DNA of 32,000 nt from Pyrodictium abyssi (GCF_036323395.1 NZ_AP028907.1:960001-992000); one strand, 5' to 3'. Numbered from the stretch's first letter, positions 14,621 to 31,705 are shown. Numbers and translations: made by a program. Notes: generated by a model from the letters alone, not told the origin.

Positions 14621-15100
14621 TCACGTGGGCGGCCCCGCTGCAGATTCTCTAAGGAGTCTGCAGACCTCCTCTACCACTCCCCGCGGGAGCCTGGCCACTA
14701 TGCTTCTTATGCTGCGCCAGTGGCTCCACTCACCGTGGCTGCGGAGACCCCCGCTAAAGCTACGCGGTATATGCAGAATCTCGTGGACCAGCACAGACAC
14801 CATTTCGCGGCACGAAAGCCCCGCGAAGTTCTCGGATACCAGCTCGATGACATACATGGGCTCGCAGAGGCCTAGCCTGGTAAAAGGCGAGGGGAGCCCC
14901 CAGATGCGCGCGTAGGCGCGCGTCCGGGACCCCGTGCTCCAGGCGGCGTAGACCCTGCTAGTATCAATGTAGTCCAGCCCCATAGCCTCTACTAGCATAC
15001 GGATGGCCTCCTCTAGCCTCCGGTCCCGCTTGTACTTCACCCTCGGCAAGGCCCAGGCCGCACCACGCTCGCAGCAGCCTGTATCGCAGAATGTAGACAC
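14621..15100 (-). CDS. Small putative zinc metalloprotein/metallopeptidase (HExxH)
   Basis: 159-aa ORF with LVHEILHIPRSFSGGLRSH (HExxH plus a downstream His), preceded by a YARIWGL...VIEL segment. The layout resembles SprT/DUF45-type minimal metallopeptidases. Function is not established. Confidence 0.5.
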   Translation of the reverse strand: MSTFCDTGCCERGAAWALPRVKYKRDRRLEEAIRMLVEAMGLDYIDTSRVYAAWSTGSRTRAYARIWGLPSPFTRLGLCEPMYVIELVSENFAGLSCREMVSVLVHEILHIPRSFSGGLRSHGEWSHWRSIRSIVARLPRGVVEEVCRLLRESAAGPPT

Positions 15101-17116: not shown

Positions 17117-17179
17117 CATGCGACACGGCCCTGCAAGTCTAGCTGACTCTTCTTTAACCTCCAATCGTATCCATAATGC

Positions 17180-17656
17180 ATGGAACCGGGGTGTGTCTCA
17201 GCGTTGAGCGCAGAAGCCCCACCCGAGGAGCTACGCATCTCGGACGTGATGACCGTTAACGTGATCACGTCTCGGCCCGACGAGACAGTAGTTGACGCGG
17301 CCCGTAAGATGGCTGAGAACGACGTGGGCAGCGTAGTCGTAGTAGATGATAGGGGCACTATACTCGGGATAGTGACTGAGGGCGACATAGTGCGCCGCGT
17401 AGTAGCCCGCGGCCTTGACCCCTCTAAGACGCTAGTAGGCGACATAATGACGCAGAACCCCGTCACTATATACGAGGACGCGACGCTCGCAGCAGCGGCG
17501 GAGTACATGAGGGAGAAGGGAATAGGCCATCTACCCGTAGTGAACGAGCACGGCAGACTCGTCGGCATAATATCACGTAGCGATATAGTCCGTCTAGCGC
17601 CGGGCCTTATCGAGGTACTCTACCTGCGTAGAGGCGGAGAACGGGCCCAGGAGTAG
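17180..17656 (+). CDS. CBS-domain pair protein (2 CBS motifs), first of five
   Basis: ISDVMTVNVITSRPDETVVDAARKMAENDVGSVVVVDDRGTILGIVTEGDIV and VGDIMTQNPVTIYEDATLAAAAEYMREKGIGHLPVVNEHGRLVGIISRSDIV are canonical CBS motifs. No other domain is present. Confidence 0.85.
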   Translation: MEPGCVSALSAEAPPEELRISDVMTVNVITSRPDETVVDAARKMAENDVGSVVVVDDRGTILGIVTEGDIVRRVVARGLDPSKTLVGDIMTQNPVTIYEDATLAAAAEYMREKGIGHLPVVNEHGRLVGIISRSDIVRLAPGLIEVLYLRRGGERAQE

Positions 17657-17745
17657 GCGGTGTAAGGGTAGCAGTCGGCTCTGCTGCCCGCATAGTCATC
17701 ATGCTACGGAAGAGATTTTACTCGAACAATACCTAGTACATAACT

Positions 17746-18567
17746 ATGGTGTTGGGCCTGGATGCTCGTATAGCGGATATCTTCTCGCCACGATATCCAT
17801 ACGTACTCCCCGACGCCGGTTTCGGGGAGCTGCGCCGCATAGTGAGAGAGCAGCGCGTCAGGATGATACCCGTAGTAGCCGATGAGAGGACCATGAAGCT
17901 TCTAGGCATAATACGTAGAGGAGCCCTGCTCCTCGCAACCGGCACCAAGGTCGAGATAACAGCGAAGGACCTGCTAGAGGACCAGGTGGTCACACTACTA
18001 CCTTCTGGTAGTATAGTTGAGGCGGCACGCCAAATGCTCCGCGTTGATGAGTGGTATGCCCCAGTGACCGATGAAGAGAGGCGGCTCCTAGGAGTGCTCG
18101 GCCTAGAAGACATAATACGCTACATACTAGAAAAACACATGGATAAGCTCCAAAGGCCGGTCTCCGACGTAATGGAGACCAAGATAGTCTACGTCGAGCC
18201 CGACACTCCGATCTACAAGGTATGGCAAATGATGCTCTCCCGCCGCCTAGCAGCTCTACCTGTGATAAAGAATGGGAAGATAATCGGTGTGATCGCTGAG
18301 CATGACTTGATAACTCATGGCTTCACACGTCCCGATTTCGAGTCCTCTTCTGGTCACCGTAGGGGCCCCACAGTGGGGGAGGTAATGTCTACTCCTGCTG
18401 TGACTATTGAGCCAGACACGCCTCTATCCGAGGCGGCAAGACTCATTGTTGAACGGGACATAGGGAGGATATACGTAGCCGATAGTAGTGGTATGTTGCA
18501 GGGAGTTGTAGACCGTAGCGATGTAGTGGCAGCCTGGCTTAAAGCTATGGGTATAAGGCCATTATGA
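17746..18567 (+). CDS. Four-CBS-motif protein, second of five
   Basis: Four successive CBS motifs ending in GIIRRGALL, GVLGLEDII, GVIAEHDLI and GVVDRSDVV. No other domain was recognised. Confidence 0.85.
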   Translation: MVLGLDARIADIFSPRYPYVLPDAGFGELRRIVREQRVRMIPVVADERTMKLLGIIRRGALLLATGTKVEITAKDLLEDQVVTLLPSGSIVEAARQMLRVDEWYAPVTDEERRLLGVLGLEDIIRYILEKHMDKLQRPVSDVMETKIVYVEPDTPIYKVWQMMLSRRLAALPVIKNGKIIGVIAEHDLITHGFTRPDFESSSGHRRGPTVGEVMSTPAVTIEPDTPLSEAARLIVERDIGRIYVADSSGMLQGVVDRSDVVAAWLKAMGIRPL

Positions 18568-18652
18568 AATCTAATTTATTATCCACTATAGATATACCTA
18601 AAGCATGGAGTACGGGGCCAAAACACTATGGATATATACCCTGGCCTCCAAG

Positions 18653-18660
18653 TTTTATAT
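18653..18660 (+). promoter_or_regulatory. TATA-box candidate (TTTTATAT) for the third CBS gene
   Basis: AT-rich octamer 78 nt upstream of the ATG at 18738, inside the only long AT-rich gap of the CBS array. Confidence 0.45.
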
Positions 18661-18667
18661 CGTGTTC

Positions 18668-18684
18668 GTGTACATTGTGTACAC
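18668..18684. promoter_or_regulatory. Perfect 7-3-7 inverted repeat GTGTACA-TTG-TGTACAC (candidate operator)
   Basis: Read directly from the sequence. It starts 8 nt downstream of the TATA candidate, roughly where a transcription start would fall. An extra GTACAC copy follows at 18685-18690. Confidence 0.45.
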
Positions 18685-18737
18685 GTACACGGTTTAGGTC
18701 GATAACAGTCCATGTGTCGCGGAGGTGATGTATTGGC

Positions 18738-19682
18738 ATGAGAATGGCGCCAGTAATACCGCGTAGAAGGCCAGAGGGTATAAGGTGGCTCAGAAGCGAT
18801 GGCACGCCGAACTTCAGCGACCGTATACACAGGAGTGAGGGCGATGCCAAGATACTCGCCAAGCGCCCAGTATACACGGTCACCAGGACTACTACCATAC
18901 TCGGTCTCGCCGAGGGCATGAGCCGGTACAACGTAAGGGCTATGCCGGTGGTTGTGCCAAACCAGGACAAGCTAGAGGGTATAGTGACAGCAATGGATCT
19001 TGTGAGCTACCTAGGCGGAGGCGAACTATACAACATAGTCGTCAACCGGCACAAAGGGAACATATACTCCGCCCTCCTCAAGGAGCACGTATCATCAATA
19101 ATGAATCCGAACCCAGTCTATGTGACTGTTGCAGAGAAGCTTCCCAAGATACTGGAGATAATGGTAACTAAGAACGTTGGCGTTGTCCCGGTAGTATTCG
19201 AGGATGGAACCCTATGGGGCATAATAACAGAGCATGACATAGTGGAACACCTGGCTGAGAAGACCGTGGGCCGCAAAGTCTCAGAAGTAATGACCAGCAA
19301 TGTGATAACCATAGACGCAAGTGCAACCATAAAGGAAGCCGCAGAGATGATGATAAGATATGGTGTGAGACGTCTACCAATAATAGAGGACGGCGCTATC
19401 TGGGGCATGATAACGGCCAAGGACATAGTAAGGTTCTTCGGAAGCCACGACGTCTTCAGGTTCACCGAGACAGACAGCATGGAGGAGGCGCTAAAAGCCC
19501 CCGTGAAGCTAGTCGGCCTCAGCGGCTACGTAACCATAGACCCCGACGCCGATGTAGGCGAAGCAGCCACGCTAATGAAGGAAAAGGGTGTAAGCAGCCT
19601 ACTCGTTGTAAAGGATGGGCAGCTCGCCGGCATCATTACTGAAAGGGACGTGCTCTACGCACTGGCGACGTCGCCGCCGTAA
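18738..19682 (+). CDS. Four-CBS-motif protein, third of five
   Basis: Four CBS motifs ending in GIVTAMDLV, GIITEHDIV, GMITAKDIV and GIITERDVL. There is a roughly 35-aa basic N-terminal extension whose start is uncertain. Confidence 0.85.
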   Translation: MRMAPVIPRRRPEGIRWLRSDGTPNFSDRIHRSEGDAKILAKRPVYTVTRTTTILGLAEGMSRYNVRAMPVVVPNQDKLEGIVTAMDLVSYLGGGELYNIVVNRHKGNIYSALLKEHVSSIMNPNPVYVTVAEKLPKILEIMVTKNVGVVPVVFEDGTLWGIITEHDIVEHLAEKTVGRKVSEVMTSNVITIDASATIKEAAEMMIRYGVRRLPIIEDGAIWGMITAKDIVRFFGSHDVFRFTETDSMEEALKAPVKLVGLSGYVTIDPDADVGEAATLMKEKGVSSLLVVKDGQLAGIITERDVLYALATSPP

Positions 19683-19755
19683 GCTCTCCTACACCCTGGC
19701 TGTTACCCTAATAGCCGCCCAGGTAGTACCAGAGGCTGCTCCTCTCATGCTCCGA

Positions 19756-19760
19756 TTTTT
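19756..19760 (+). terminator. Oligo-T tract (TTTTT) downstream of the third CBS gene
   Basis: T5 run 74 nt after the stop at 19682, in an otherwise GC-rich spacer. Confidence 0.4.
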
Positions 19761-19819
19761 CCAGGCCGTGTTGCTAGAGTTCATGTCTCTTCACACACGT
19801 GCAGAGGGATGAACCAGAC

Positions 19820-20665
19820 ATGAAGTATCCACGTATAGAAGAATACATGTCTTCACCCGTGGTAGTAGTTAGCCCGAACGATAGCCTCGCTCGTGCCAGA
19901 AGGCTCATGATAAGGTACCGTATAGGCAGGCTGGTCATAGTTGATGAGCAGGATAGGCCTATAGGCATGTTGACTAAGTCTGACTTCCTCCGCTTGGCCT
20001 CGGGGCAGCTCACTCGCCGCCCCCTAGAGTCCATAATAGTAAAGGAGATCATGAGCGATAATCCTGTGGTTGTTCGGTCAGACCGGTCGCTAAGGGAAGC
20101 TGCGAGGCTAATGCTGCAGCACAATATAGGCGGGTTGCCCGTGGTGGACGAAAACGGCAGACTAGTTGGAATGATAACTAAGACCGATGTTGTGAGGGCT
20201 TATGCCGAGAAGCTGCGCGGAAAGTACATGGTCAAGGAGTATATGTATAGTGATGCGCCCCAGGCGTCGCCCAGCCATAGCGTGGCGTACGTGGTAGAGC
20301 TGCTGGAGAATCACCCGTCTCGCCGCGTACTAGTCGTTGATGGGAATGAGCTCGTGGGCATAGTAGCGCCGAGCGACATAGCCTTCATAAACTATATGCC
20401 GAGCATTTCTAAGGGTAAGAAGACCTCCAGAAGGTTCGCCGAGCTCCCGAAGGGGCGTATAGGCCCTGTCTACGAGTACTTGCTCCCAACGGCCCAGGAC
20501 ATAATGACCCCTGACCCGATAACCGTCGGCCCCGACGAGGACCTGGCGACAGCGGCACAGCTGATGATAAGGCATGGGTTTAGCTCGGTCCCAGTGGTTG
20601 ATGATGGAACCCCGCTGGGAGTCGTGGTTAAGCATAATATTCTGAGGGCGATATCAGAGACATAA
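19820..20665 (+). CDS. Four-CBS-motif protein, fourth of five
   Basis: The track ORF begins at GTG 19799. The ATG at 19820 (MKYPRIEEYMSSPVVVVSPNDSL) sits directly at the first CBS motif. The four motifs end in GMLTKSDFL, GMITKTDVV, GIVAPSDIA and GVVVKHNIL. Confidence 0.85.
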   Translation: MKYPRIEEYMSSPVVVVSPNDSLARARRLMIRYRIGRLVIVDEQDRPIGMLTKSDFLRLASGQLTRRPLESIIVKEIMSDNPVVVRSDRSLREAARLMLQHNIGGLPVVDENGRLVGMITKTDVVRAYAEKLRGKYMVKEYMYSDAPQASPSHSVAYVVELLENHPSRRVLVVDGNELVGIVAPSDIAFINYMPSISKGKKTSRRFAELPKGRIGPVYEYLLPTAQDIMTPDPITVGPDEDLATAAQLMIRHGFSSVPVVDDGTPLGVVVKHNILRAISET

Positions 20666-20723
20666 CTACGGGTGTCCTTGGAACCGCGAAGCCAAGGGAA
20701 CCCGGAAGGGAGGTGTAGACGCC

Positions 20724-21536
20724 ATGGCCGTGGCCAGGAAGGCCCGGGACATAATGCAGACAGACTACCCGGCTGTAGACAAGGATGAGACACTCGAGCA
20801 TGCTGTGCGCGTCATGAAGAAGTACGATAGCGACCGCGTGCTAGCTTTCGAGGATGAGAGACTCGTAGGTATAATGACTAAGAAGGACATAATGATTAAG
20901 CTGGCTACGACTCGTACCTGGAACGTGGCAATCGGTAGAATGCACGTGTCGAGCTTCATGACGCCCGACCCCAAGACTGTGGAGCCCGAGACAGATGTGG
21001 GTGTGGTTGCCCAGCGCATGGTGGACGAGAATGTAGGGAGCTTCCCGGTAGCCGAGAACGGGAAGGTTGTTGGCCTAGTGACGCGCTGGGAGATAGCCAA
21101 CCTAGCTGGGGAGGTAGGAGCCGACGTTAAGGCGGTAGATGTGATGGTCACTGTGCCAGAGGTACTAAGGACCACTAACAAGGTGCTGCATGCTAGGCAG
21201 CTCCTGCTACGCTACAATGTGCTCTTCCTACCAGTGCTGGACGAGGAAGGCCGGCTGGTGGGCTACATAACCGTTGACGAGATTGCTGACGCTTTCCTGG
21301 CATTCCACGATATAGTGCCAGAGAAGTATCGCAAGGAGCGTATAGAGCACCTCCTGGTGGACGACATAATGAGGCTACGCCCGCCAACGGTGACGCCGGA
21401 CAGCAGTGTAGCCGAGGTACTGGACAAGATGAAGGTGAAGAAGTCTAAGGGCGTAGTAGTAGTGCATGAGGGCAAGCTGGTAGGCATAATAACGCTTAAT
21501 GAGCTAGTCAAGCTAGTAGCGATGAGAAGCCAGTAG
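20724..21536 (+). CDS. Four-CBS-motif protein, fifth of five
   Basis: GGGAGGTG lies 8 nt upstream of the ATG. The four motifs end in GIMTKKDIM, GLVTRWEIA, GYITVDEIA and GIITLNELV. Confidence 0.85.
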   Translation: MAVARKARDIMQTDYPAVDKDETLEHAVRVMKKYDSDRVLAFEDERLVGIMTKKDIMIKLATTRTWNVAIGRMHVSSFMTPDPKTVEPETDVGVVAQRMVDENVGSFPVAENGKVVGLVTRWEIANLAGEVGADVKAVDVMVTVPEVLRTTNKVLHARQLLLRYNVLFLPVLDEEGRLVGYITVDEIADAFLAFHDIVPEKYRKERIEHLLVDDIMRLRPPTVTPDSSVAEVLDKMKVKKSKGVVVVHEGKLVGIITLNELVKLVAMRSQ

Positions 21537-21683: not shown

Positions 21684-22208
21684 TTGTCGCCAAGGCTTGA
21701 GGCTAGGCTGAGAGCTGCTAGGTTCATAGTGGACTCTATGCTGGGGAGTTTAGCGAGATGGCTGAGGATGATAGGCTGTGACACGGTGTACGCTAAGGGG
21801 TGGCATGACTCGCGGATAATCGAGGAGGCGGGGAACTCCCGCCGGATAATAGTCACGAGGGACCGTGGCCTCTTCAACAGGGCGCGGCGGCGCGGCCTAG
21901 ACGCAGTGCTCGTGAGCGACGACGTTGCCAGGGCTCTGGCTGTCCTCAGTCTCCGGTACGGCATCCCCCTCGAGATAGTACCGGAGCGGAGCCGCTGCCC
22001 GGTCTGTAACAGCCCGCTCCGCAGCGCCTCGAAGGAGGAGGTCAAGGGCAGGGTGCCGCCCAGGGTCTACGAGGCCTACGACGAGTTCTGGGTATGCACG
22101 GGCTGCAGCCAGGTGTACTGGCGCGGGGGCCACTGGAGGGGTATAGAGGAGACCCTCCGTGAGGCCCGCCGGTGGGCTGAGAAGCTCCGCTCCAAGAGGC
22201 GGCGGTGA
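21684..22208 (+). CDS. Mut7-C (DUF82) PIN-like RNase-domain protein with C-terminal zinc ribbon
   Basis: RFIVDSMLGSLARWLRMIGCDTVY is the characteristic Mut7-C start. The C-terminus carries CPVCNSPL...CTGCSQVYWRGGHW. The TTG start at 21684 is uncertain. Confidence 0.7.
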   Translation: MSPRLEARLRAARFIVDSMLGSLARWLRMIGCDTVYAKGWHDSRIIEEAGNSRRIIVTRDRGLFNRARRRGLDAVLVSDDVARALAVLSLRYGIPLEIVPERSRCPVCNSPLRSASKEEVKGRVPPRVYEAYDEFWVCTGCSQVYWRGGHWRGIEETLREARRWAEKLRSKRRR

Positions 22209-23959: not shown

Positions 23960-26164
23960 TTATGCTAGCCTGTTGTGCTGCATCGCGGCGAGCTGCTCTA
24001 GCACCCGGCGTAGACTCTCCCGGGCCTCCTGGAGGGATACGCGGAGCCCGGCAGCTATGTCGCTCATGGTCTTGCCCTGGAGCACCCGCGCGGCCACGAT
24101 CCAGCGGTCCTTCTCCTCGAAGGGCTCCCGGAGCCCGCCGCTGGCCAGCACGTGGTTGACCAGTAGTAGCCACAGCACGTCGAGCACAGCCTCTACGTCT
24201 AGCTGGCCCTCGAGGGCCCGGCTTAGGCGGTGCCGCTGTTCCTCGGTGAGGCCTGCTAGCGGCTGCTGGGCTAGCTCCGGGGCGCCCTCGAGGACGGCTG
24301 CGTAGGCCTCGGCTGTGAGGCCCCGGTAGAGGCTGTGCCCGGCTAGGAGTAGCTTCCGCAGCGTATCCCGCGCAGCGGTTAGGACCACCTCTTCGCCGAG
24401 GCCGGATAGGGGCCTGGCCACGGCTATGTTGTGCTCTCCGGTCGCCTTGCTGGGCAGCGGCGACACGTAGACCACGTAGAAGCCGTTGCGGCGCCAGAAG
24501 CCGAGCACATCCGGCTGCCCGAAGACGGCACCCAGCCAGTCCAGCCCCATGCCACGGGCCTGCTCCTCCACGTAGCCTAGTAGGCGGGTGCCTAGCCCGC
24601 GGCGCTGTAGCCCGGGGTGCACAGCTATCCTGACCACGCGTAGGCCCCGGGCCCTGGTGGCGCTTGGCGACGCTTGCGCCAGGAGGTCCGGCATTATCCG
24701 GGCCTCGTAGGCGGTGTCCCAGTCCTCCAGGGAGGCGTCTACGACGGCCACGGGCGTGTCGTCGGCTAGGAGCGCGTAGAGACGGTGGTGCGGGGCATCG
24801 AGGATGAGCGCCAGGTCGTCCGGCTCGTTCCGGTAGTGGGCCTGCACCAGTATCCCGTAGACCCGCGACAACAGCGTGTAGTCGTCCGCCAGCTTCACCC
24901 GGTCCAGCTCGAGGGCCTCGAGCCTCCCTGGGGGCCAGCGCGGCGGCGGGGGAGCCTCGGCCCGGAGCATGAACGTCTCATAGAGCCACTCCTCCAGGGG
25001 GTCGCCCGGCGGGTAGCGGACCGGGTGCTCCAGCCATACCACGAGCCGGGGCTCCGGCAGTATCGCCTCCACCATCTTCGCGAGTACCCGGCCGCTCCCC
25101 TCGTAGCCGTGTATCGTCGTGGCTGCTAGCAGCCTGGGGCTGCGGGATGCGAGGCGCCTCAGCCTCATCGGCCCGAGCGCCGCGGCCTCGTCCACTATGG
25201 TGAAGGCGCCTGGCTCCACGCGGTCCGGGGTATGGTAGCGGAAGTGGAACCAGGGCCCCGCGACGCCGAGCACGAGGCCGCCGCGCTCCATGGTCCAGTG
25301 GCGTACCCCGAGCCTGGCCAGCGCCGCGCCGAGTACCCGGAAGAACCCCTGTACGCTCCCGGGGCTCGGCGCGGTGACGGGGACGAAGCCGACCATGTGG
25401 CTAGCCGCGAGGTAGGCTGCTACCAGGCCTAGTAGCCCCGACTTGCCCCGGCCACGGTCCCCGGTGACGAGCACGCTGCGGCCTCTCCTACGGATGTGGA
25501 GGACTATCTCGTCCAGCGCGCGGGCCTGGTCGAGAGTGGCGGCCGCCTCTAGAAGGCGGCGGTGGACCGGGCTACGGGCCCGGTAGCTCTCGGGGCCCGG
25601 CGGCGCCTGGGCCCGGCCCGGCGGCAGCGCCTGCCGGTACACGATGCTGGCGTCGTAGTCGGCCCAGAACAGCGCCCTCGCGGCGCCTAGCCTGTTGACC
25701 AGGTAGCGGCGGTAGGCGCCTATGCTCTCGTCTCCGCCGGGCCTCCACTCCCCCAGAGGCGGCACGGCCAGCGCTACCACGCCGCCGCCACGCACGGTCT
25801 CAGCAGCAGCGGCCAGCAGGTTGGGCCGCAGGAGCCGCGGCACGACGAGGACTACGGCGCTGTTCTCGGTCCCGAGCAGCCGGTCTATTGCGCCCGGGCT
25901 CTCGAGCCTGCTGCAGTCGCCCCGGAGGGGCTCCCGGGCCTCGCGGGGCGCTATGCAGAGCACGTCGCCGTACACGTCGCGGAGGATGCGCGCTAGCAGG
26001 CTCCCCGCGTAGACCGGTGAGACGGAGTGGAGCACCACCAGGCCACGGTACCCGCCGGTGGCCTGTAGCTCCTCTAGCCAGCTCCGGAGCGCTGCAGTGA
26101 TACCGGCCACTGTCCTCTGCCCCAGGGGCCGTGGAGGGCTCTCGGCATAATAGCCTCGGCTCAT
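23960..26164 (-). CDS. tmcA: tRNA/RNA cytidine N4-acetyltransferase TmcA (Nat10/Kre33 homologue)
   Basis: 734-aa ORF. It has a helicase-type Walker A (VTGDRGRGKSGLLG), a DEAA Walker-B-like motif (FTIVDEAAALG) and a GNAT acetyl-CoA motif (RIAVHPGLQRRGLGTRLL). Size and domain order are typical of TmcA. Confidence 0.85.
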   Translation of the reverse strand: MSRGYYAESPPRPLGQRTVAGITAALRSWLEELQATGGYRGLVVLHSVSPVYAGSLLARILRDVYGDVLCIAPREAREPLRGDCSRLESPGAIDRLLGTENSAVVLVVPRLLRPNLLAAAAETVRGGGVVALAVPPLGEWRPGGDESIGAYRRYLVNRLGAARALFWADYDASIVYRQALPPGRAQAPPGPESYRARSPVHRRLLEAAATLDQARALDEIVLHIRRRGRSVLVTGDRGRGKSGLLGLVAAYLAASHMVGFVPVTAPSPGSVQGFFRVLGAALARLGVRHWTMERGGLVLGVAGPWFHFRYHTPDRVEPGAFTIVDEAAALGPMRLRRLASRSPRLLAATTIHGYEGSGRVLAKMVEAILPEPRLVVWLEHPVRYPPGDPLEEWLYETFMLRAEAPPPPRWPPGRLEALELDRVKLADDYTLLSRVYGILVQAHYRNEPDDLALILDAPHHRLYALLADDTPVAVVDASLEDWDTAYEARIMPDLLAQASPSATRARGLRVVRIAVHPGLQRRGLGTRLLGYVEEQARGMGLDWLGAVFGQPDVLGFWRRNGFYVVYVSPLPSKATGEHNIAVARPLSGLGEEVVLTAARDTLRKLLLAGHSLYRGLTAEAYAAVLEGAPELAQQPLAGLTEEQRHRLSRALEGQLDVEAVLDVLWLLLVNHVLASGGLREPFEEKDRWIVAARVLQGKTMSDIAAGLRVSLQEARESLRRVLEQLAAMQHNRLA

Positions 26165-26194
26165 GCCTTCCTAGTGTGTGGAGGCAGCGCTGCT

Positions 26195-27307
26195 ATGCAG
26201 GCCGAGCTAGAGGTGTTCTTCAGGCTCCTCAAGAGGCTCTCCGACGCCTTCGGCGTGTCGGGCTACGAGGACGAGGTAAGAGGCATAGTCATAGACGAGC
26301 TGCGCGAGGCGGCCGACGAGCTACGCGTCGACAAGCTCGGCAACGTCATAGCTGTGAAGAAGGGCGAGCGCGGCGGCATCAAGGTCCTCTGGGACAGCCA
26401 CATGGACGAGATAGGCTTCTTCGTTAAGAGCATCGATGACCGGGGCTTCATCTACCTCTCCCCGGTCGGCGGCTGGAGCGAGCGCGTGCTGCCGGGCCAG
26501 AGGGTCCGGATACTCACCGACGACGGCCGCATAGTCCGCGGCGTCATAGGGATAAAGCCGCCGCACCTAATGAAGCCCGAAGAGAGGAACCAGGTAGTCC
26601 CGCTCGACAGGCTCTTCGTCGACATAGGCGCGTCGAGCCGCGAGGAGGTCGAGCGCGCCGGGATCCGGGTCGGCAGCCCGGTTGACCTGGACCGCGAGGC
26701 TATGATGCTGCTGGGCGACCGGGTGACCGGCAAGGCCTTCGACGACAGGGTAGGCGTGGCCGTGCTGATAAAGGCGTTCAAGGAGATAGACGGGTTCGAG
26801 CCCACGGTGTACCTGGTGGCCGCCGTCCAGGAGGAGGTCGGGCTGAAAGGCGCCCGCGTCGCAGCCCAGCAGATCGGCCCCGACGCGGCGATAGCGGTGG
26901 ACGTGACCACGGCTAACGACGTGCCGGGCGTGGAGCCGAAGGACCAGGTGGCCAGGCTCGGCGGCGGCCCCGTGATCAAGGTGGCTGACGGCAGGAACGC
27001 GTCCGGGCTGATAGCCCACCCGAAGATGCTCCGCCTGCTCATAGAGGCGGCGCGGAGCGAGGGCATACCCCACCAGCTCAGCATACTACCCGGAGGCACC
27101 ACGGACGCGACAACGATAGCCCTCACCGGCGAGGGCGTGCCGAGCGCAGTGGTAGCGGTGCCCACGCGCTACATACACAGCCCGGTAGAGCTGCTAAGCC
27201 TAGGCGACGCCGTCAACGCCGCCCGGCTGGTCATGGCGGCGACCCGGCGCATGACCCGGGAGTGGTACGAGCGCGAGATACTCTGGGGCGCCCGGCTCAA
27301 GGCCTAG
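26195..27307 (+). CDS. M42-family (TET/FrvX-type) aminopeptidase
   Basis: LLKRLSDAFGVSGYEDEVRGIVIDEL...DKLGNVIAVKKG...SHMDEIGF...GKAFDDRVG...VQEEVGLKGA...RYIHSP is the classic M42 motif set. The ATG at 26195 is preceded by GGAGG. The track start at GTG 26174 is less likely. Confidence 0.85.
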   Translation: MQAELEVFFRLLKRLSDAFGVSGYEDEVRGIVIDELREAADELRVDKLGNVIAVKKGERGGIKVLWDSHMDEIGFFVKSIDDRGFIYLSPVGGWSERVLPGQRVRILTDDGRIVRGVIGIKPPHLMKPEERNQVVPLDRLFVDIGASSREEVERAGIRVGSPVDLDREAMMLLGDRVTGKAFDDRVGVAVLIKAFKEIDGFEPTVYLVAAVQEEVGLKGARVAAQQIGPDAAIAVDVTTANDVPGVEPKDQVARLGGGPVIKVADGRNASGLIAHPKMLRLLIEAARSEGIPHQLSILPGGTTDATTIALTGEGVPSAVVAVPTRYIHSPVELLSLGDAVNAARLVMAATRRMTREWYEREILWGARLKA

Positions 27308-27399
27308 CCCCGCGGAGCCGGCGCCGCCCCCGCGTAGCGCCCGCCGGTTTTCCGTGCAGCCGGGGCCACTCTCCCCTCTGGTAGGAGGCAGGGCCAGTC

Positions 27400-28956
27400 A
27401 TGGAGACGGGTATCGAGGAGAAGCTCCGGGAGCTGCGCGAGCTCCGCCGCCGCGCCATGGAGGGCGGCGGGCCCGACAAGGTGAGGCGGCAGCGCGAGAA
27501 GGGCAAGCTGCTAGCCCGCGAGCGGATAGAGGCGCTCCTCGACCCCGGCAGCTTCCAGGAGATAGGCTGGCTGGTGACTACGCGTAGCAGCCTCTTCGGC
27601 CTCGACAAGAGCCGGGTGCCCGGCGACGGCGTGGTAGCGGGCTTCGGCCGGGTCGACGGCCGCCCGGTCTACGTGTTCGCCCAGGACTTCACGGTGATGG
27701 GCGGTAGTATAGGCGAGATGCACGCCGAGAAGATAGTGCGCACCATAGAGCTGGCGGTGAAGAGCGGCGTCCCCGTCATAGGCATGTGGGACTCCGGCGG
27801 CGCCCGCATCCAGGAGGGCGTCGCCGCGCTCCACGGCGTCGGCCGGATACTCAACGCGATTATACAGGCTAGCGGCGTGATCCCCCAGATATCGCTCGTC
27901 CTCGGCCCCTCGGCGGGCGGCGCAGCCTACGCCCCAGCCCTCATGGACTTCACGGTGGTCGTCGACCGGATAACCTACATGTTCATAACCGGGCCCGACG
28001 TCGTGCGGGAGGTCACCGGCGAGGACGTGGGCTTCGAGGAGCTAGGCGGCGCGCGGGTGCACAGCGAGCGGAGCGGGGTCGCGCACTTCCGCGCCTCTAG
28101 CGAGGAGGAGGCCTTCGAGACCGTCCGGCGGCTCCTCAGCTACCTGCCCGACAACAACGAGGCGCTCCTCCCCATAGAAGACACCGGGGACCCGGTGGAC
28201 CGCCAGGACCCAGAGCTCGACGCCATCATACCCCCGGACCCGATGAAGCCCTACGACGTGAGGGAGGTGCTGGAGCGGGTATTCGACGCCGGTAGCCTGC
28301 TCGAGGTCCAGAGCGAGTGGGGCACAAGCATAGTGACCGCGTTCGCCCGGCTCGGCGGCATACCGGTCTGCGTGGTGGCTAGCCAGCCCCTGGTGATGAG
28401 CGGCGCGATAGACATAGACGCGTCGTGCAAGGCGGCCCGCTTCGTGAGGTTCTGCGACGCCTTCAACCTCCCCGTGGTGACGTTCGTGGACGTGCCCGGC
28501 TACATGCCGGGGACGAGCCAGGAGCACGGCGGCATAATAAGGCATGGTGCTAAGATGCTCTACGCGTACGCGGAGGCCACGGTGCCGAAGATAACCGTGG
28601 TCCTCAGGAAGGCGTACGGCGGCGCCTACATATCCATGGGGAGCAAGTCGATGGGCGCGGACCTGGTCCTCGCCTGGCCCACAGCCGAGATAGCCGTGCT
28701 CGGCGCGGAGGCGGCTGTGAGGATACTCTACCGCCGCCAGCTAGCCCGGGCCGAGGACCCGGAGAAGCTGCGCCGCCAGCTGGTAGAGGAGTACCGCAGG
28801 ACGTTCCTCAACCCCTACCGGGCGGCCGAGCTGGGCCTCATCGACGACGTGATAGAGCCCCGGGAGACCCGGCCGAAGCTCTACCAGGCGCTGGCCGTGC
28901 TGCTGAAGAAGCGGGAGCACAGGGCCCCCAGGAAGCACGGGAACATACCGCTCTAG
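27400..28956 (+). CDS. pccB: Acyl-CoA carboxylase carboxyltransferase subunit (PccB/AccD-like; acetyl/propionyl-CoA carboxylase beta)
   Basis: 518-aa ORF with carboxyltransferase hallmarks: GKLLARERIEALLDPGSF, VFAQDFTVMGGSIGEMH, SGGARIQEG, GPSAGGAAY, DVPGYMPG, and ITVVLRKAYGGAYI. Confidence 0.9.
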   Translation: METGIEEKLRELRELRRRAMEGGGPDKVRRQREKGKLLARERIEALLDPGSFQEIGWLVTTRSSLFGLDKSRVPGDGVVAGFGRVDGRPVYVFAQDFTVMGGSIGEMHAEKIVRTIELAVKSGVPVIGMWDSGGARIQEGVAALHGVGRILNAIIQASGVIPQISLVLGPSAGGAAYAPALMDFTVVVDRITYMFITGPDVVREVTGEDVGFEELGGARVHSERSGVAHFRASSEEEAFETVRRLLSYLPDNNEALLPIEDTGDPVDRQDPELDAIIPPDPMKPYDVREVLERVFDAGSLLEVQSEWGTSIVTAFARLGGIPVCVVASQPLVMSGAIDIDASCKAARFVRFCDAFNLPVVTFVDVPGYMPGTSQEHGGIIRHGAKMLYAYAEATVPKITVVLRKAYGGAYISMGSKSMGADLVLAWPTAEIAVLGAEAAVRILYRRQLARAEDPEKLRRQLVEEYRRTFLNPYRAAELGLIDDVIEPRETRPKLYQALAVLLKKREHRAPRKHGNIPL

Positions 28957-29420
28957 CCCCGCTCCTCGCACTTTATCCTCGCGACTACGCCTCCCCTGTC
29001 TACGCCCCTCCCGGCCTCGGCTATCTCCTCGACTACGCCGTGGCAGGGGGCGTGAACCTCGTTAACCATCTTCATGGTCTCGAGGAGGGCTATGACCTGG
29101 CCCTCTGTGACCCGGTCGCCCACCCTGGCCCGGGCCTCGACCACCTTGACCGGGAGCCGGGCCCGTATAGCCCCCGACTCGTCGACCGAGACCAGCCAGT
29201 CCTCGCGGCGGCCCCGCGTCCTCTGGCCCCTGTGGACGGCGCCGGGCCGGAGCGAGGCCAGGTGGTAGCTCCCGTACGGGGTCTCCAGGACGTCGCCGAC
29301 GAGCCGCGCCTGGATGGTGACTATCCGGCCGCCTACCTCGAGCCGGGCCTCGTATAGCCCGGGCGCGGTCTCCCGCAGCTCTAGGAGCCTAGCCCCTCCA
29401 GGGCGGCCATGGCCACCCAT
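28953..29420 (-). CDS. accB: Biotin carboxyl carrier protein (BCCP)
   Basis: The C-terminal biotinyl domain carries the biotinylation motif LETMKMVNEVHAP (E-x-M-K-M). It overlaps accC by 32 nt and shares a CTAG stop with pccB. Confidence 0.85.
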   Translation of the reverse strand: MGGHGRPGGARLLELRETAPGLYEARLEVGGRIVTIQARLVGDVLETPYGSYHLASLRPGAVHRGQRTRGRREDWLVSVDESGAIRARLPVKVVEARARVGDRVTEGQVIALLETMKMVNEVHAPCHGVVEEIAEAGRGVDRGGVVARIKCEERG

Positions 29421-30873
29421 AGCTGTGGCTCACCACTGCGAGCCGGGGTGCGGCCGCAGCGCCTCCGCGGAGCCCGTTGCCGTGGGCGTGTAGCTGGGAG
29501 GCTATAGCGGCTGCGAGCGCGCGCCTCTCCTCCGCGGCCTCTAGCAGCTCGGGGAGCCGCTCCTCGAGCAGGGTTGTCGAGTACTCGCCGTCGGCGAACC
29601 AGGGGCTCTCCACCACGACGCGGAGCAGGTCGAGGTTGGTCTCGACCCCGGCCACCACCATCTCGCGGAGCGCGGCCCGGAGCCTAGCCACGGCCTCGCC
29701 CCTGTCCATGCCCCTCGCTATCACCTTGGCGAGGAGGGTGTCGTAGCGGCTCGAGACGCGCTGGCCCTCCTCGACGCCCGAGTCTACGCGGATGCCGGGG
29801 CCCCGTGGCTCCCGGTACCTGGTGACCACGCCCTCGGAGGCCTGGAACCCGGCCCAGGGGTCCTCGGCGTAGATCCTCGCCTCTATCGCCCAGCCGTGGA
29901 GCCGGACGTCGCTCTGGCGTAGCGGCAGCCGGTTCCCCGCCGCCACGAGGAGCTGCATCTTGACTATGTCGACGCCGGTGACCTCCTCTGTGACACCGTG
30001 CTCCACCTGGAGCCTCGTGTTGGCCTCTATGAAGTAGGCGTTCCCATGCCGGTCCACGATGAACTCTACGGTGCCGGCGCTGGTGTAGCCCACGTGCTCG
30101 GCCAGCCGGAGGGCGTAGCCCAGGAGCCTCTCCCGTAGCCCGGGGATCCTCTCGGCCAGGGGGCTGGGCGCCTCCTCGACCACCTTCTGGCGGCGGCGCT
30201 GGAGCGAGCACTCCCTCTCGTAGAGGTGGAGGACCCTGCCGTCCTCGTCGCCGAGGACCTGGACCTCGATGTGCCGCGGCGCCTCTATGTAGCGCTCCAC
30301 GTAGACCTCGCCGCCGTCGCCGAAGCCGAGCCTCGCCTCGACCGCTACCAGCCTGTAGAGGCTCGCCGCCTCGCCGGGGCGCCGGGCCACCCTCATGCCG
30401 CGGCCGCCGCCGGCCCTGGAGGCCTTGAGCACCACGGGGTAGCCTATCTTCTCGGCGCAGGCCTCGGCCTCCTCGGGACTCGTGGCCCGGCACCAGGGCA
30501 GCGTCGGGACGCCGAGCCTCTCAGCCAGCGCCTTGGCGCTCGCCTTGTCGCCCAGCATCCTCATGGCCTTGGGGTGTGGCCCGGCCCAGGAGAGCCCCGC
30601 GTCGAGCACCCTTTCGGCGAACTCGGGGCTCTCGGAGAGGAACCCGTAGCCCGGGTGCACCACGTCCGCGCCGGTCTTGACCGCAGCCTCTATGATGGAG
30701 TCCATGTCGGTGTAGCTCCTCACGGGGACCGAGACTATGCCGGCCAGGACGTGGGGGCTAGCACGGTCGGCATCCTCGTATATCGTGACTGGCTCCCAGC
30801 CGAGCTCCCGCGCGGCACGGGCCACGCGGATAGCGACTTCGCCGCGCGCCGCTATCAGCACCCTCCTGGCCAC
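29389..30873 (-). CDS. accC: Biotin carboxylase subunit
   Basis: RVLIAARGEVAIRVARAARELG, HPGYGFLSE, an ATP-grasp region (GYPVVLKASRAGGGRGMRV) and EANTRLQVEHGVTE. The track ORF extends to 31035, across the AT-rich promoter. The GTG at 30873 (VARRVLIAARGE) matches the usual N-terminus. Confidence 0.9.
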   Translation of the reverse strand: MARRVLIAARGEVAIRVARAARELGWEPVTIYEDADRASPHVLAGIVSVPVRSYTDMDSIIEAAVKTGADVVHPGYGFLSESPEFAERVLDAGLSWAGPHPKAMRMLGDKASAKALAERLGVPTLPWCRATSPEEAEACAEKIGYPVVLKASRAGGGRGMRVARRPGEAASLYRLVAVEARLGFGDGGEVYVERYIEAPRHIEVQVLGDEDGRVLHLYERECSLQRRRQKVVEEAPSPLAERIPGLRERLLGYALRLAEHVGYTSAGTVEFIVDRHGNAYFIEANTRLQVEHGVTEEVTGVDIVKMQLLVAAGNRLPLRQSDVRLHGWAIEARIYAEDPWAGFQASEGVVTRYREPRGPGIRVDSGVEEGQRVSSRYDTLLAKVIARGMDRGEAVARLRAALREMVVAGVETNLDLLRVVVESPWFADGEYSTTLLEERLPELLEAAEERRALAAAIASQLHAHGNGLRGGAAAAPRLAVVSHSYGWPWPPWRG

Positions 30874-30924
30874 GGCCCTGGCACCCTTCCCCGATTCAAC
30901 ACGACCAAACCATGTATCTAAACG

Positions 30925-30938
30925 CTTATAAATATAAG
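30925..30938. promoter_or_regulatory. Palindromic TATA-like element CTTATA-AA-TATAAG between divergent accC and birA
   Basis: This is the only AT-rich block in an otherwise roughly 70-85% GC region. It lies 24 nt upstream of the birA GTG (30962) and 52 nt upstream of the accC GTG (30873). Confidence 0.5.
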
Positions 30939-30961
30939 GCTTAAGGCGGGAGGCGAAAGCC

Positions 30962-31705
30962 GTGTACGACAGTGGACGTAGATACGTTTGTATACCCCGG
31001 GGTATCACCGGGGCAGGGGCAAGACGCCTAGCCATAGAGGTCTACGACACCCTGGAATCCACCATGGACACGCCGCCCCCACGCTTCCCCGGCGTGACAA
31101 TAGCCCTCGAGCAGACAAGGGGCCGCGGCCGCCGCGGTAACACCTGGACAAGCCCCCGCGGCGGCGCCTGGCTAACAATCCACCTCCCCGGCCCTCCGCC
31201 CCAGGCGGCGCCCAGCCTCCTTCCAGTCGCCCTCGGCGGCTGCCTAGCCGAGGCCCTCGAGCAGCTCCCCGGCGTAGAGCCAGGGGCGATAAAGGTCAAG
31301 TGGCCCAACGACCTCTACACGGCTCGGGGCAAGCTAGCCGGCATACTAGTCGAGACAGCCGGCGACACGCTCCGGGTAGGCATAGGCGTCAACGTCTACA
31401 ACCAGGCACCGCCCGGCGCCGCGCGGCTAGCAGACCACGGCTACCGAGGCCCACTAGCCCTCGTATACCTAGCAGTAACAGAGGCAGTACTCACCTCCCT
31501 AGAGCAGCCACACCGGGGCCTACAGGCGGCAAGGGAGAGAGACATGCTCAGAGGCCTCCATGTAGTGCTAGAGACGCCTACCGGCAGGCTAGCCGGAGTA
31601 GCCAGGGGCGTCACTGACACCGGGGCACTCGCCCTAGAGACTAGCGAGGGCATAGTAGAGGCCTACTGCTGCACCGTACTGACGTGGAGAAGGCTCCCAG
31701 GCTAG
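30962..31705 (+). CDS. birA: Biotin--[acetyl-CoA-carboxylase] ligase (class I BPL, no N-terminal HTH)
   Basis: Contains the biotin-ligase signature TRGRGRRGNTWTSPRGG (GRGRxGRxWxSPxG), then KWPNDLY and GILVE. Length is 247 aa from the GTG at 30962. Confidence 0.8.
   Translation: MYDSGRRYVCIPRGITGAGARRLAIEVYDTLESTMDTPPPRFPGVTIALEQTRGRGRRGNTWTSPRGGAWLTIHLPGPPPQAAPSLLPVALGGCLAEALEQLPGVEPGAIKVKWPNDLYTARGKLAGILVETAGDTLRVGIGVNVYNQAPPGAARLADHGYRGPLALVYLAVTEAVLTSLEQPHRGLQAARERDMLRGLHVVLETPTGRLAGVARGVTDTGALALETSEGIVEAYCCTVLTWRRLPG

What the first reader, a model, noticed from the sequence alone, without database searches (positions are those of the whole stretch)
17180..21536. Five consecutive co-directional CBS-only genes (18 CBS motifs in 4.4 kb) with no effector domain
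Seen in sequence:
- One 2-CBS protein is followed by four 4-CBS proteins, all on the + strand.
- They are separated by gaps of 89, 170, about 137 and 58 nt.
- None carries a channel, enzyme or DNA-binding domain.
- Most motifs keep the G-h-h-(T/S)-x-x-D ending (GIVTEGDIV, GIITEHDIV, GMITKTDVV and others) that contacts the ribose of adenosyl ligands in characterised CBS modules.
- The paralogues are strongly diverged, so this is an old, maintained array rather than a recent duplication.

Established knowledge: CBS pairs form Bateman modules that sense AMP/ATP/SAM and usually regulate a fused or partner protein. Four-CBS stand-alone proteins resemble the gamma subunit of AMPK.

Inference: the array could encode a set of interchangeable or hetero-oligomeric adenylate/SAM sensor subunits for an unidentified partner. 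Gene 5 has a strong SD and only a 58-nt gap, so genes 4 and 5 are probably co-transcribed. Gene 3 has its own TATA and operator. I know of no described system made of a tandem CBS-only array.
Basis: partly seen in the sequence, partly recalled or inferred. Interest (0 to 1): 0.72.

Follow-up and report, generated by a model that had tools for sequence, protein, structure and literature searches.

The report
Ribosome hibernation gene cluster sriABCD
The five CBS-only genes are a Pyrodictium copy of the archaeal sriABCD operon described in 2026, whose four proteins plug and protect idle ribosomes, preceded by a small CBS gene that accompanies the operon in many archaea; it is a known system, not a new one.

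Summary
Five co-directional ORFs (17180-21536) carry 2+4+4+4+4 = 18 Pfam CBS domains and no other domain.

The array is no longer undescribed. Genes 2-5 are one-to-one orthologues, in the same order, of SriA, SriB, SriC and SriD of Methanosarcina acetivorans (PDB 9znf/9zng/9zni; Nissley et al., Nat Commun 2026). These are ribosome hibernation factors. SriA and SriB block the large-subunit A/P sites, peptidyl transferase centre and exit tunnel. SriC and SriD block the small-subunit mRNA and tRNA paths.

Evidence here:
- Forward and reciprocal best hits agree for all four genes.
- Profile HMMs trained only on methanogens give the same assignments.
- Alignments are collinear over the full length.
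- The basic SriC ribosome-binding loop is conserved.
- SriB has a conserved, predicted-disordered N-terminal extension, shorter than in M. acetivorans.
- The same gene order occurs in 21 of the fetched loci, across three archaeal phyla.

Gene 1, a CBS pair, is the first gene of sri clusters in 47 of 77 archaeal loci. Outside Thermoproteota it usually carries a zinc ribbon. A Mut7-C RNase gene follows the cluster in several Thermoproteota families. I found neither neighbour discussed in the papers I read. They are the only possibly new element.

The parts
17180..17656 (+). Gene 1 ('U'): stand-alone CBS pair, 158 aa. It is the first gene of the cluster and a ribbon-less counterpart of the CBS-pair plus zinc-ribbon gene that precedes sri clusters in other archaea (MA4647 position).
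   Evidence: Two CBS domains, both with the canonical T/S-x-x-D motif. A small CBS-pair gene is first in the cluster in 47 of 77 archaeal loci. The alignment shows a C-terminal CxxC..CxxC ribbon in the non-Thermoproteota copies and none here. Homologues at 42-52% identity are also sri-linked.
17746..18567 (+). sriA orthologue, 273 aa, 4 CBS. Predicted blocker of the large-subunit A/P sites.
   Evidence: Best PDB hit is 9znf chain 4 (SriA), E 2.9e-25, collinear 28-266 against 22-260. Methanogen-only A profile scores 176 bits against 94 for the next model. Reciprocal best hit 89 against 73 bits.
18738..19682 (+). sriB orthologue, 314 aa, 4 CBS.
   Evidence: Best PDB hit is 9znf chain 5 (SriB), E 2.5e-48, with MJ1225 second. 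B profile scores 254 against 126 bits. Reciprocal best hit 169 against 64 bits. AF2 model pLDDT 88.5. Best structural match is MJ1225, TM 0.79/0.89.
18738..18845 (+). SriB N-terminal extension (residues 1-36). Inferred to be the element that enters the peptidyl transferase centre and exit tunnel.
   Evidence: The motif R-P-E-G-I-R-W-L-R-x-D-G-x-P-N-F is invariant or nearly so in 46 homologues. 'PNFSDRI' aligns to MaSriB 'PSFKSRI' at residues 47-53. pLDDT is 50-56 over residues 1-30, against more than 90 in the core.
19799..20665 (+). sriC (ARC-P) orthologue, 288 aa from GTG. The likely true start is the ATG at 19820, giving 281 aa. 4 CBS.
   Evidence: Best PDB hit is 9zni chain 6 (SriC), E 3.7e-31, collinear 13-285 against 3-280. 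C profile scores 215 against 143 bits. Reciprocal best hit 112 against 71 bits. CBS1 and CBS2 keep T-x-x-D.
20393..20488 (+). SriC ribosome-binding loop (residues 199-230, YMPSISKGKKTSRRFAELPKGRIGPVYEYLLP).
   Evidence: It aligns to MaSriC 191-225. It is 32 aa with net charge +5, against 35 aa and +5 in M. acetivorans.
20724..21536 (+). sriD (ARC-A) orthologue, 270 aa, 4 CBS. Predicted blocker of the small-subunit A site and mRNA channel.
   Evidence: Best PDB hit is 9zng/9zni chain 7 (SriD), E 2.8e-30, collinear 6-263 against 18-270 with indels of 1-3 residues. D profile scores 176 against 128 bits. Reciprocal best hit 112 against 76 bits.
17153..17159 (+). TTTAACC, a TATA-like element about 21-27 nt upstream of the gene 1 start codon. 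Candidate cluster promoter (inference).
   Evidence: A TTAAACC element sits 22-27 nt upstream of the U start in L001 and L004.
18653..18696 (+). TTTTATAT box overlapped by a 19-nt imperfect inverted repeat in the sriA-sriB spacer. Possible internal promoter and operator, or a leader hairpin (inference).
   Evidence: Not conserved in the L001, L004 or L082 spacers.
18721..18728 (+). Shine-Dalgarno-like GGAGGTGA, 9 nt before the sriB ATG.
20708..20715 (+). Shine-Dalgarno-like GGGAGGTG, 8 nt before the sriD ATG. Fits co-transcription of sriC and sriD.
21684..22208 (+). Mut7-C (PIN-like) RNase gene directly downstream. A conserved neighbour of the last sri gene in several Thermoproteota families; any functional link is unproven.
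   Evidence: PF01927 at 1.3e-48. In the same position in L001, L003, L004, L008, L013-L016, L018 and L082.

Best explanation
Genes 2-5 are the sriA-sriB-sriC-sriD cluster of a Pyrodictium (closest to P. delaneyi). By homology to the characterised M. acetivorans and Methanolobus proteins, they are ribosome hibernation factors. When energy is low, SriA sits in the large-subunit A and P tRNA sites, and the disordered N-terminal tail of SriB threads past it into the peptidyl transferase centre. On other ribosomes, SriC occupies the small-subunit P/E sites, using a basic loop that holds the 16S 3' end, and SriD occupies the A site, decoding centre and mRNA channel. This silences idle ribosomes and protects them from nucleases. 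Adenine nucleotides bound in the CBS pockets (AMP stabilising, ATP releasing) are the likely switch.

Shown here: orthology, gene order and conservation of the ribosome-binding elements. Inferred from the orthologues: ribosome binding, pairing and nucleotide control.

Gene 1 is a separate small CBS-pair gene that habitually heads sri clusters. Its role, perhaps sensor or regulator, is unknown.
For: - Each of the four genes has a different best PDB hit, full length and in gene order: 9znf chain 4 (SriA), 9znf chain 5 (SriB), 9zni chain 6 (SriC) and 9zng/9zni chain 7 (SriD), with E-values from 2.9e-25 to 2.5e-48. The entry titles were confirmed.
- Reciprocal best hits from the M. acetivorans sequences are all correct.
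- Profiles built only from methanogen loci, defined by gene position, assign g2 to A, g3 to B, g4 to C and g5 to D, with margins of 48-128 bits and E-values from 1e-52 to 1e-76.
- Alignments are collinear with only small indels.
- The SriC loop keeps its length and +5 charge.
- The SriB extension is present, strongly conserved and predicted disordered.
- SriC CBS1 and CBS2 keep T-x-x-D, the two sites that hold AMP in ARC-P.
- The same order, U-A-B-C-D, is found in Pyrodictiaceae, Fervidicoccaceae, Methanomicrobiales, Methanobacteriaceae and Methanococcoides.
- Published function: operon structure, translation inhibition, knockout phenotype, cryo-EM sites, and 529 species with syntenic sriA-D (PMC13454478); AMP/ATP control (doi 10.64898/2026.01.19.700304).
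Against: - No experiment exists for any Thermoproteota Sri protein. The published work is on Methanosarcinales.
- The SriB extension is about 23 residues shorter than in M. acetivorans. With my own profile only 14 residues align to MaSriB 27-56, just under the paper's cut-off of more than 15 residues for the long form. How far it reaches into the exit tunnel is therefore uncertain.
- SriA here has lost the T/S ribose contact in all four CBS domains.
- The reciprocal margin for SriA is narrow, 89 against 73 bits.
- The intergenic spacers are long (89-170 nt) and there is a possible internal promoter, unlike the tight operons of Methanoregula.
- Thermoproteota are reported to use the fused factor Dri. 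I could not check whether this genome also has one.
Confidence: 0.85

Rival explanations
1. The proteins are Sri orthologues by descent but have diverged in function in Pyrodictiaceae. They might be general adenylate sensors or regulators of another process, with ribosome hibernation carried out by Dri or another factor.
For: The SriB extension is shorter and borderline under the paper's criterion. SriA has no canonical ribose-contact residues. Dri is said to predominate in Thermoproteota. Other Thermoproteota keep only A-B-C or B alone, so the set is evolutionarily plastic.
Against: The ribosome-contacting elements are the best conserved parts: the SriB motif is invariant in 46 homologues and the SriC loop keeps its charge. 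The full four-gene order is retained. The alignments are collinear.
Confidence: 0.08
2. This is the first reader's model: interchangeable AMPK-gamma-like sensor subunits that regulate an unidentified enzyme or kinase partner.
For: The fold resembles AMPK gamma (TM about 0.7). Nine of the 18 CBS domains keep the ribose-contact motif. MJ1225, the second-best hit for gene 3, was deposited as 'a putative archaeal homolog of g-AMPK'.
Against: Identity to AMPK gamma is only 13-17%. No kinase or scaffold subunit lies in the window. Every gene has a much closer, position-specific match to a ribosome-bound Sri protein. The Sri proteins have distinct, non-interchangeable sites.
Confidence: 0.04
3. They are CBS-tetrad transcription factors (HhpR type), or CBS-containing defence or second-messenger receptors (DS11 anti-phage, CbpB c-di-AMP receptor).
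For: Weak NCBIfam hits to HhpR (52-81 bits), DS11 (34-65 bits) and CbpB (34-79 bits).
Against: All of these are far below the curated cut-offs of 520, 260 and 125 bits, and reflect shared CBS domains only. There is no DNA-binding domain and no defence-island context: the neighbours are housekeeping RNA and protein-metabolism genes.
Confidence: 0.02

Closest known systems
SriA-SriD, single ribosomal subunit inhibitors of Methanosarcina acetivorans (Nissley et al., Nat Commun 2026, PMC13454478; PDB 9znf, 9zng, 9zni)
   Same: Four separate 4-CBS genes in the order A-B-C-D, with one-to-one reciprocal orthology. SriB has an N-terminal extension and SriC has a basic loop. A dual-CBS gene lies immediately upstream, as MA4647 does.
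   Different: Different phylum (Thermoproteota, Pyrodictiaceae). About 23-35% identity. The SriB extension is about 23 residues shorter and has its own conserved motif. SriD lacks the N-terminal extension. SriA has no T/S ribose contacts. The spacers are wider. The upstream gene has no zinc ribbon. A Mut7-C RNase gene follows the cluster.
ARC-P / ARC-A of Methanolobus (Zhu et al., bioRxiv 2026, doi 10.64898/2026.01.19.700304)
   Same: ARC-P and ARC-A correspond to SriC and SriD. They form a small-subunit blocking pair switched by AMP and ATP. Window SriC keeps T-x-x-D in CBS1 and CBS2, the two AMP sites of ARC-P.
   Different: Window SriD has T-x-x-E rather than an Asp in CBS3, where ARC-A anchors AMP with D176, and it has a canonical CBS1, where ARC-A has Asn. 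The arginine pocket proposed for ATP could not be mapped.
Dri, dual ribosomal subunit inhibitor of Pyrobaculum calidifontis (PDB 9e6q, 9e7f)
   Same: The same CBS-tetrad building blocks. The N-lobe resembles SriA and the C-lobe resembles SriC, with the same ribosomal sites.
   Different: Dri is a single protein of about 655 aa with two fused tetrads. Here the tetrads are separate genes, and SriB and SriD are extra partners.
HibA / AHA (SriA-like tetrad fused to an HPF/RaiA domain)
   Same: A SriA-related CBS tetrad that binds the large subunit.
   Different: [quoted passage not shown]
MJ1225 of Methanocaldococcus jannaschii (PDB 3kh5, 3lfz)
   Same: Second-best sequence hit (6.5e-43) and best structural match (TM 0.79/0.89) for gene 3.
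   Different: 280 aa, with no N-terminal extension. The alignment starts at MJ1225 residue 7, opposite gene 3 residue 38. It therefore resembles the 'SriB-short' form.
AMPK gamma subunit
   Same: Four-CBS disc fold that binds adenine nucleotides.
   Different: 13-17% identity. It is part of a kinase heterotrimer, and no alpha or beta subunit genes are present here.
TA0289-type CBS pair fused to a zinc ribbon (PDB 1pvm, 2qh1, 3ghd), compared with gene 1
   Same: Gene 1 hits Ta0289 at 1.9e-14. The genes at the same cluster position in Euryarchaeota have this CBS-pair plus CxxC..CxxC architecture.
   Different: Gene 1 ends about 20 residues after CBS2 and has no cysteine motif.

Membership tests
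Sri (SriA-D) ribosome hibernation factors | Each protein consists of four tandem CBS domains with no other domain | tested here: met
   Pfam finds 4 CBS stretches in each of genes 2-5 and nothing else above cut-off.
Sri (SriA-D) ribosome hibernation factors | Each protein falls in the subfamily of one specific Sri (best model or hit; the paper uses E < 1e-35) | tested here: met
   Forward best PDB hits are distinct and in order. Reciprocal best hits agree. Methanogen-only profiles give A 1.2e-52, B 1.4e-76, C 2.1e-64 and D 1.2e-52, each the top model. These are my own profiles, not the published ones, and no tree was built.
Sri (SriA-D) ribosome hibernation factors | Genes clustered and co-directional in the order sriA-sriB-sriC-sriD | tested here: met
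   The same order is seen in 21 fetched loci.
Sri (SriA-D) ribosome hibernation factors | SriB long form: N-terminal extension with more than 15 residues aligning to MaSriB 27-56 | tested here: inconclusive
   A conserved, predicted-disordered extension of 33-36 residues is present. With my profile only 14 residues fall in the reference stretch and 19 more lie N-terminal to it. True short forms have 2-4 residues.
Sri (SriA-D) ribosome hibernation factors | SriC long form: long, positively charged small-subunit-binding loop (MaSriC 191-225) | tested here: met
   32 aa with net +5, against 35 aa and +5 in M. acetivorans.
Sri (SriA-D) ribosome hibernation factors | SriD loops that engage the decoding centre; SriA surface that contacts H69 and uL16 | tested here: inconclusive
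   Only collinearity could be tested. Indels are 1-3 residues and linker lengths are preserved. The contact residues are not given in the text I could read.
Sri (SriA-D) ribosome hibernation factors | Conserved SriA-SriB and SriC-SriD interface residues | not tested
   The residue lists are in figures and supplements that are not held.
Sri (SriA-D) ribosome hibernation factors | Binds ribosomes, inhibits translation and protects rRNA in stationary phase | not testable with these tools
   Shown only for M. acetivorans and Methanolobus.
ARC (SriC/SriD) nucleotide switch | T/D ribose-contact pairs at the AMP sites: ARC-P CBS1 and CBS2, ARC-A CBS3 | tested here: inconclusive
   SriC CBS1 and CBS2 are canonical T-x-x-D. 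SriD CBS3 is T-x-x-E.
Dri | A single polypeptide of more than 500 aa with two fused CBS tetrads | tested here: not met
   The window has separate ORFs of 270-314 aa with stop codons and spacers of 58-170 nt between them.
HibA / AHA | CBS tetrad fused to an HPF/RaiA domain | tested here: not met
   No HPF/RaiA hit in any of the five proteins.
AMPK gamma subunit | Part of an alpha/beta/gamma kinase complex, with sequence membership in the gamma family | tested here: not met
   Fold similarity only (TM about 0.7, 13-17% identity). No kinase genes in the window.
TA0289-type CBS-pair plus zinc-ribbon family (gene 1) | C-terminal four-cysteine zinc ribbon after the CBS pair | tested here: not met
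   Gene 1 and the other Pyrodictiaceae and Staphylothermus copies lack the CxxC..CxxC segment present in the 17 non-Thermoproteota copies aligned.
HhpR / DS11 anti-phage / CbpB | NCBIfam curated score cut-off | tested here: not met
   Scores of 34-81 bits against cut-offs of 520, 260 and 125.

The most novel reading that the evidence does not exclude
The sri module may be larger than the four published genes. A small CBS-pair protein (zinc-ribbon-bearing in Euryarchaeota and DPANN-like lineages, ribbon-less in Pyrodictiaceae) may be an ancient, conserved fifth component that senses nucleotides or redox state and controls when Sri proteins engage ribosomes. An RNA-acting enzyme placed after the cluster (Mut7-C RNase in Desulfurococcales-type Thermoproteota, RNA ligase in Archaeoglobales) may be a functional partner in ribosome or RNA turnover during dormancy.
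Probability: 0.3. Interest if true: 0.55.

Novelty: new member of a known kind. Interest (0 to 1): 0.3.

Why it matters
Its value is comparative. It is a hyperthermophilic Thermoproteota version with a shorter but very strongly conserved SriB tail and a nucleotide-site pattern different from the methanogen proteins. That makes it a natural test of which features of Sri-ribosome recognition are universal. The conserved neighbours, the leading CBS-pair gene and the trailing RNase or RNA ligase, offer concrete, testable candidates for the still unknown regulation of Sri binding. The authors themselves flag that regulation as open.

Tried and rejected
- Exact-sequence look-up of gene 3, and later of P0257, found nothing on record.
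- The Sri paper's supplementary tables, which would show whether Pyrodictiaceae were catalogued and list interface residues, are not held.
- The sigma-70 promoter and intrinsic-terminator scan is not meaningful for an archaeon. It found 4 sites against 3.3 expected, and no terminators.
- A strict regular expression for the CBS motif missed the diverged motifs. I replaced it with a motif-by-motif table.
- I tried to show that gene 1 is a sequence orthologue of the euryarchaeal upstream gene using a profile HMM. It scored 115 bits on the U model against 80 on the next. The control failed: an unrelated stand-alone CBS pair scores 100 bits and another 164. The link is therefore positional only.
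- Gene 1 homologues at E about 1e-17 sit in unrelated contexts.
- A U-anchored homologue search returned only Archaeoglobi, so it gave limited independent sampling.
- The TATA box and inverted repeat before gene 3 are not conserved in relatives.
- HhpR, DS11 anti-phage, CbpB, Dri, HibA and AMPK-gamma membership were considered and rejected.
- The GC jump at 24-31 kb is not a foreign island. The syntenic Hyperthermus locus shows the same rise over the same gene.

Full report
**Observation.** The window carries five consecutive + strand ORFs at 17180-17656, 17746-18567, 18738-19682, 19799-20665 and 20724-21536. Pfam finds 2, 4, 4, 4 and 4 CBS stretches, with E-values from 6e-37 to 2.5e-65, and no other family above its curated cut-off. 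NCBIfam gives only sub-threshold hits caused by shared CBS domains. The gaps are 89, 170, 116 (137 if gene 4 starts at the ATG at 19820) and 58 nt. The 4-CBS paralogues are 23-28% identical to one another. The only correction concerns the [T/S]-x-x-D ribose-contact motif, which is intact in 9 of 18 domains, or 12 if T-x-x-E is counted. The distribution is uneven: gene 1 2/2, gene 2 0/4, gene 3 4/4, gene 4 2/4, gene 5 1/4.

**Identification.** A sequence search of the PDB gave an unexpected pattern. Each 4-CBS gene has a different best hit, full length, and the hits follow the gene order:

| Window gene | Best PDB chain | Chain length | E-value |
|---|---|---|---|
| Gene 2 | 9znf chain 4 | 270 aa | 2.9e-25 |
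| Gene 3 | 9znf chain 5 | 339 aa | 2.5e-48 |
| Gene 4 | 9zni chain 6 | 281 aa | 3.7e-31 |
| Gene 5 | 9zng / 9zni chain 7 | 280 / 274 aa | 2.8e-30 |

. These entries are the Methanosarcina acetivorans 70S ribosome in complex with SriA and SriB, with SriD, and with SriC and SriD. They come from Nissley et al., Nat Commun 2026.

That paper describes four 4-CBS genes in one operon, named in gene order. All four inhibit translation in vitro. Deleting them lengthens the lag after extended stationary phase and depletes the small subunit. SriA occupies the large-subunit A and P sites, and the disordered N-terminal extension of SriB runs past it into the peptidyl transferase centre and exit tunnel. SriD occupies the small-subunit A site and decoding centre. 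SriC occupies the P/E sites, with a beta-hairpin loop that holds the 16S 3' end. sri genes occur in 1,636 species of 15 phyla, and 529 species have sriA-D in syntenic order. A parallel preprint names the SriC/SriD orthologues ARC-P/ARC-A and shows AMP bound in ARC-P CBS1 and CBS2 and in ARC-A CBS3, with ATP releasing the complex from the ribosome.

**Membership tests.**
- I rebuilt the paper's approach with independent data. From 80 genome loci fetched around SriB homologues, I defined A, B, C and D sets purely by gene position, in 15 methanogen loci with no Thermoproteota, and built profile HMMs.
- The window proteins each score best on their positional counterpart: A 176 bits (next 94), B 254 (126), C 215 (143) and D 176 (128), with E-values from 1e-52 to 1e-76.
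- Reciprocal best hits from the M. acetivorans sequences back to the five window proteins are all correct: A 89/73, B 169/64, C 112/71 and D 112/76 bits.
- The alignments to the solved chains are collinear, with indels of 1-3 residues.
- The paper's SriC test is met. The region aligned to MaSriC 191-225 is 32 residues with net charge +5, against 35 residues and +5 in the reference.
- The paper's SriB test is borderline. There are 33-36 residues before the first CBS. The motif R-P-E-G-I-R-W-L-R-x-D-G-x-P-N-F is invariant or nearly so in 46 homologues. Its C-terminal part aligns to MaSriB 47-53. AlphaFold2 gives pLDDT of 50-56 for residues 1-30, against more than 90 for the core, which is the behaviour reported for MaSriB. 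However, the extension is about 23 residues shorter than in M. acetivorans, and only 14 residues align to the reference stretch with my profile, against a cut-off of more than 15.
- Foldseek places the gene 3 model closest to MJ1225 (TM 0.79/0.89). SSO3205, SriA, SriD, AMPK gamma (about 0.7) and Dri follow.
- Dri, HibA/AHA, HhpR, DS11 and CbpB membership all fail a defining feature.

**Source and synteny.** The closest named relatives are Pyrodictium delaneyi (gene 1, 97%), P. occultum (gene 3, 84%), Hyperthermus butylicus (75%) and Pyrolobus fumarii (62%). A Hyperthermus MAG (L001) shares the whole neighbourhood: PhoH-KH, TYW3, the five CBS genes, Mut7-C, a VTT-domain protein and TmcA.

Across the fetched loci, the order 2-CBS, A, B, C, D occurs in 21. 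These come from Pyrodictiaceae and related MAGs, Fervidicoccaceae, Methanomicrobiales, Methanobacteriaceae, Methanococcoides and an unclassified archaeon. Other Thermoproteota (Aeropyrum, Acidilobaceae, Caldisphaera, a Sulfolobales MAG, some Desulfurococcaceae) have only A-B-C. Several Desulfurococcaceae have SriB alone. Methanobrevibacter has B-D.

**Mechanism.** The best-supported explanation is that this cluster encodes a ribosome hibernation system that works like the M. acetivorans one, in two alternative pairs. SriA and SriB act on the large subunit. SriC and SriD act on the small subunit. Adenine nucleotides serve as the signal. Orthology, order and conservation of the ribosome-contacting elements are shown here. 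Ribosome binding, pairing and nucleotide control are inferred from the orthologues.

The nucleotide-site pattern suggests that SriB (4/4 sites) and SriC (CBS1 and CBS2, as in ARC-P) are the likely sensors. SriA (0/4) is probably not one.

Operon structure is inference only:
- A TTTAACC element lies about 21-27 nt before gene 1, and similar elements sit upstream of U in L001 and L004.
- Shine-Dalgarno motifs precede sriB and sriD.
- A T-run follows sriD.
- A TTTTATAT box overlapping a 19-nt inverted repeat lies in the sriA-sriB spacer. It is not conserved in relatives.

**Gene 1 and the flanks.** Gene 1 is not one of the published Sri genes. The paper mentions only that a dual-CBS gene, MA4647, lies immediately upstream and is not co-transcribed.

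In my SriB-anchored loci, a small CBS-pair gene is the first gene of the cluster in 47 of 77 archaeal loci. It frequently overlaps the next gene by 4 nt. Outside Thermoproteota it carries a C-terminal CxxC..CxxC zinc ribbon, as in the TA0289 and 3ghd type proteins. In Pyrodictiaceae, Fervidicoccaceae and Staphylothermus it lacks the ribbon but keeps the helix after CBS2. Homologues of gene 1 at 42-52% identity are again sri-linked. Starting instead from the ribbon-bearing gene in two Archaeoglobales genomes, the next gene is SriB-like and an RNA ligase follows.

The caveat is important. Sequence does not discriminate these proteins from generic CBS pairs, because controls score as well on the U profile and weaker homologues sit in unrelated contexts. 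The link between the Thermoproteota and euryarchaeal genes is therefore positional only.

A Mut7-C RNase gene directly follows the last sri gene, whether that is D or a lone B, in ten Thermoproteota loci as well as in the window. This could be simple retained synteny. None of the four hibernation papers I searched mentions either neighbour, and one of them discarded hits shorter than 200 aa.

**Verdict.** The target is now known to be the ribosome, and the system was published in 2026. I rate this locus a new member of a known kind. It has modest lineage-specific differences, plus a possibly undescribed pair of conserved neighbours that deserve a proper phylogenomic test.

Noticed in passing
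window 17180-17656; loci L019-L077 (first gene of each cluster): A small CBS-pair gene heads the sri cluster in 47 of 77 archaeal loci, often overlapping the next gene by 4 nt. Outside Thermoproteota it has a C-terminal CxxC..CxxC zinc ribbon; in Pyrodictiaceae, Fervidicoccaceae and Staphylothermus it does not. The hibernation papers I read do not discuss it beyond noting MA4647.
   Followed up: partly
window 21684-22208; L001, L003, L004, L008, L013-L016, L018, L082: A Mut7-C (PIN-like) RNase gene sits directly downstream, on the same strand, of whichever sri gene is last (SriD or a lone SriB) in several Thermoproteota families. It may be retained synteny or a functional link to RNA turnover.
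   Followed up: partly
L086 5001-7633; L087 5001-7606: In Archaeoglobus sulfaticallidus and A. neptunius the zinc-ribbon CBS-pair gene is followed by a short SriB-like gene and then an RNA ligase (PF09414), with touching or overlapping junctions. This looks like a three-gene unit.
   Followed up: no
loci L025, L037, L043, L044, L048-L051, L061, L066, L076; window 18568-18737: The largest spacer in the cluster is usually between sriA and sriB: about 100-300 nt in many methanogen loci and 170 nt here. U-A and B-C-D are tightly packed or overlapping. This hints at a conserved two-part organisation.
   Followed up: no
L005-L007, L009-L011, L021, L022, L081; L012-L018: Many other Thermoproteota keep only sriA-B-C, with no sriD and mostly no leading CBS-pair gene (L081 keeps it), or keep a lone long-form SriB. 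SriC is said to need SriD as a partner in M. acetivorans, so these reduced sets may work differently.
   Followed up: no
PDB 3kh5/3lfz against window 18738-19682: MJ1225, long known as a putative archaeal gamma-AMPK homologue of unknown role, is the second-best sequence hit and the best structural match of the SriB orthologue. It lacks the N-terminal extension, so it looks like the 'SriB-short' class.
   Followed up: partly
window 24000-31000; L001 12000-15000: GC content rises from about 0.55-0.60 to 0.66-0.73 over the TmcA/NAT10-type RNA acetyltransferase gene and beyond. The syntenic Hyperthermus locus shows the same rise, so it is a conserved property and not a recent foreign insertion. 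The cause is unknown.
   Followed up: partly
window 14621-15100 (-): A 159-aa ORF matches the Pfam 'putative phage metallopeptidase' family (3.9e-16). It sits among housekeeping genes (proteasome-activating AAA ATPase, PhoH-KH, TYW3).
   Followed up: no
L081 4084-5970: In one Fervidicoccaceae locus an NFACT-family gene (ribosome quality control) lies immediately upstream of the U-A-B-C cluster on the same strand.
   Followed up: no
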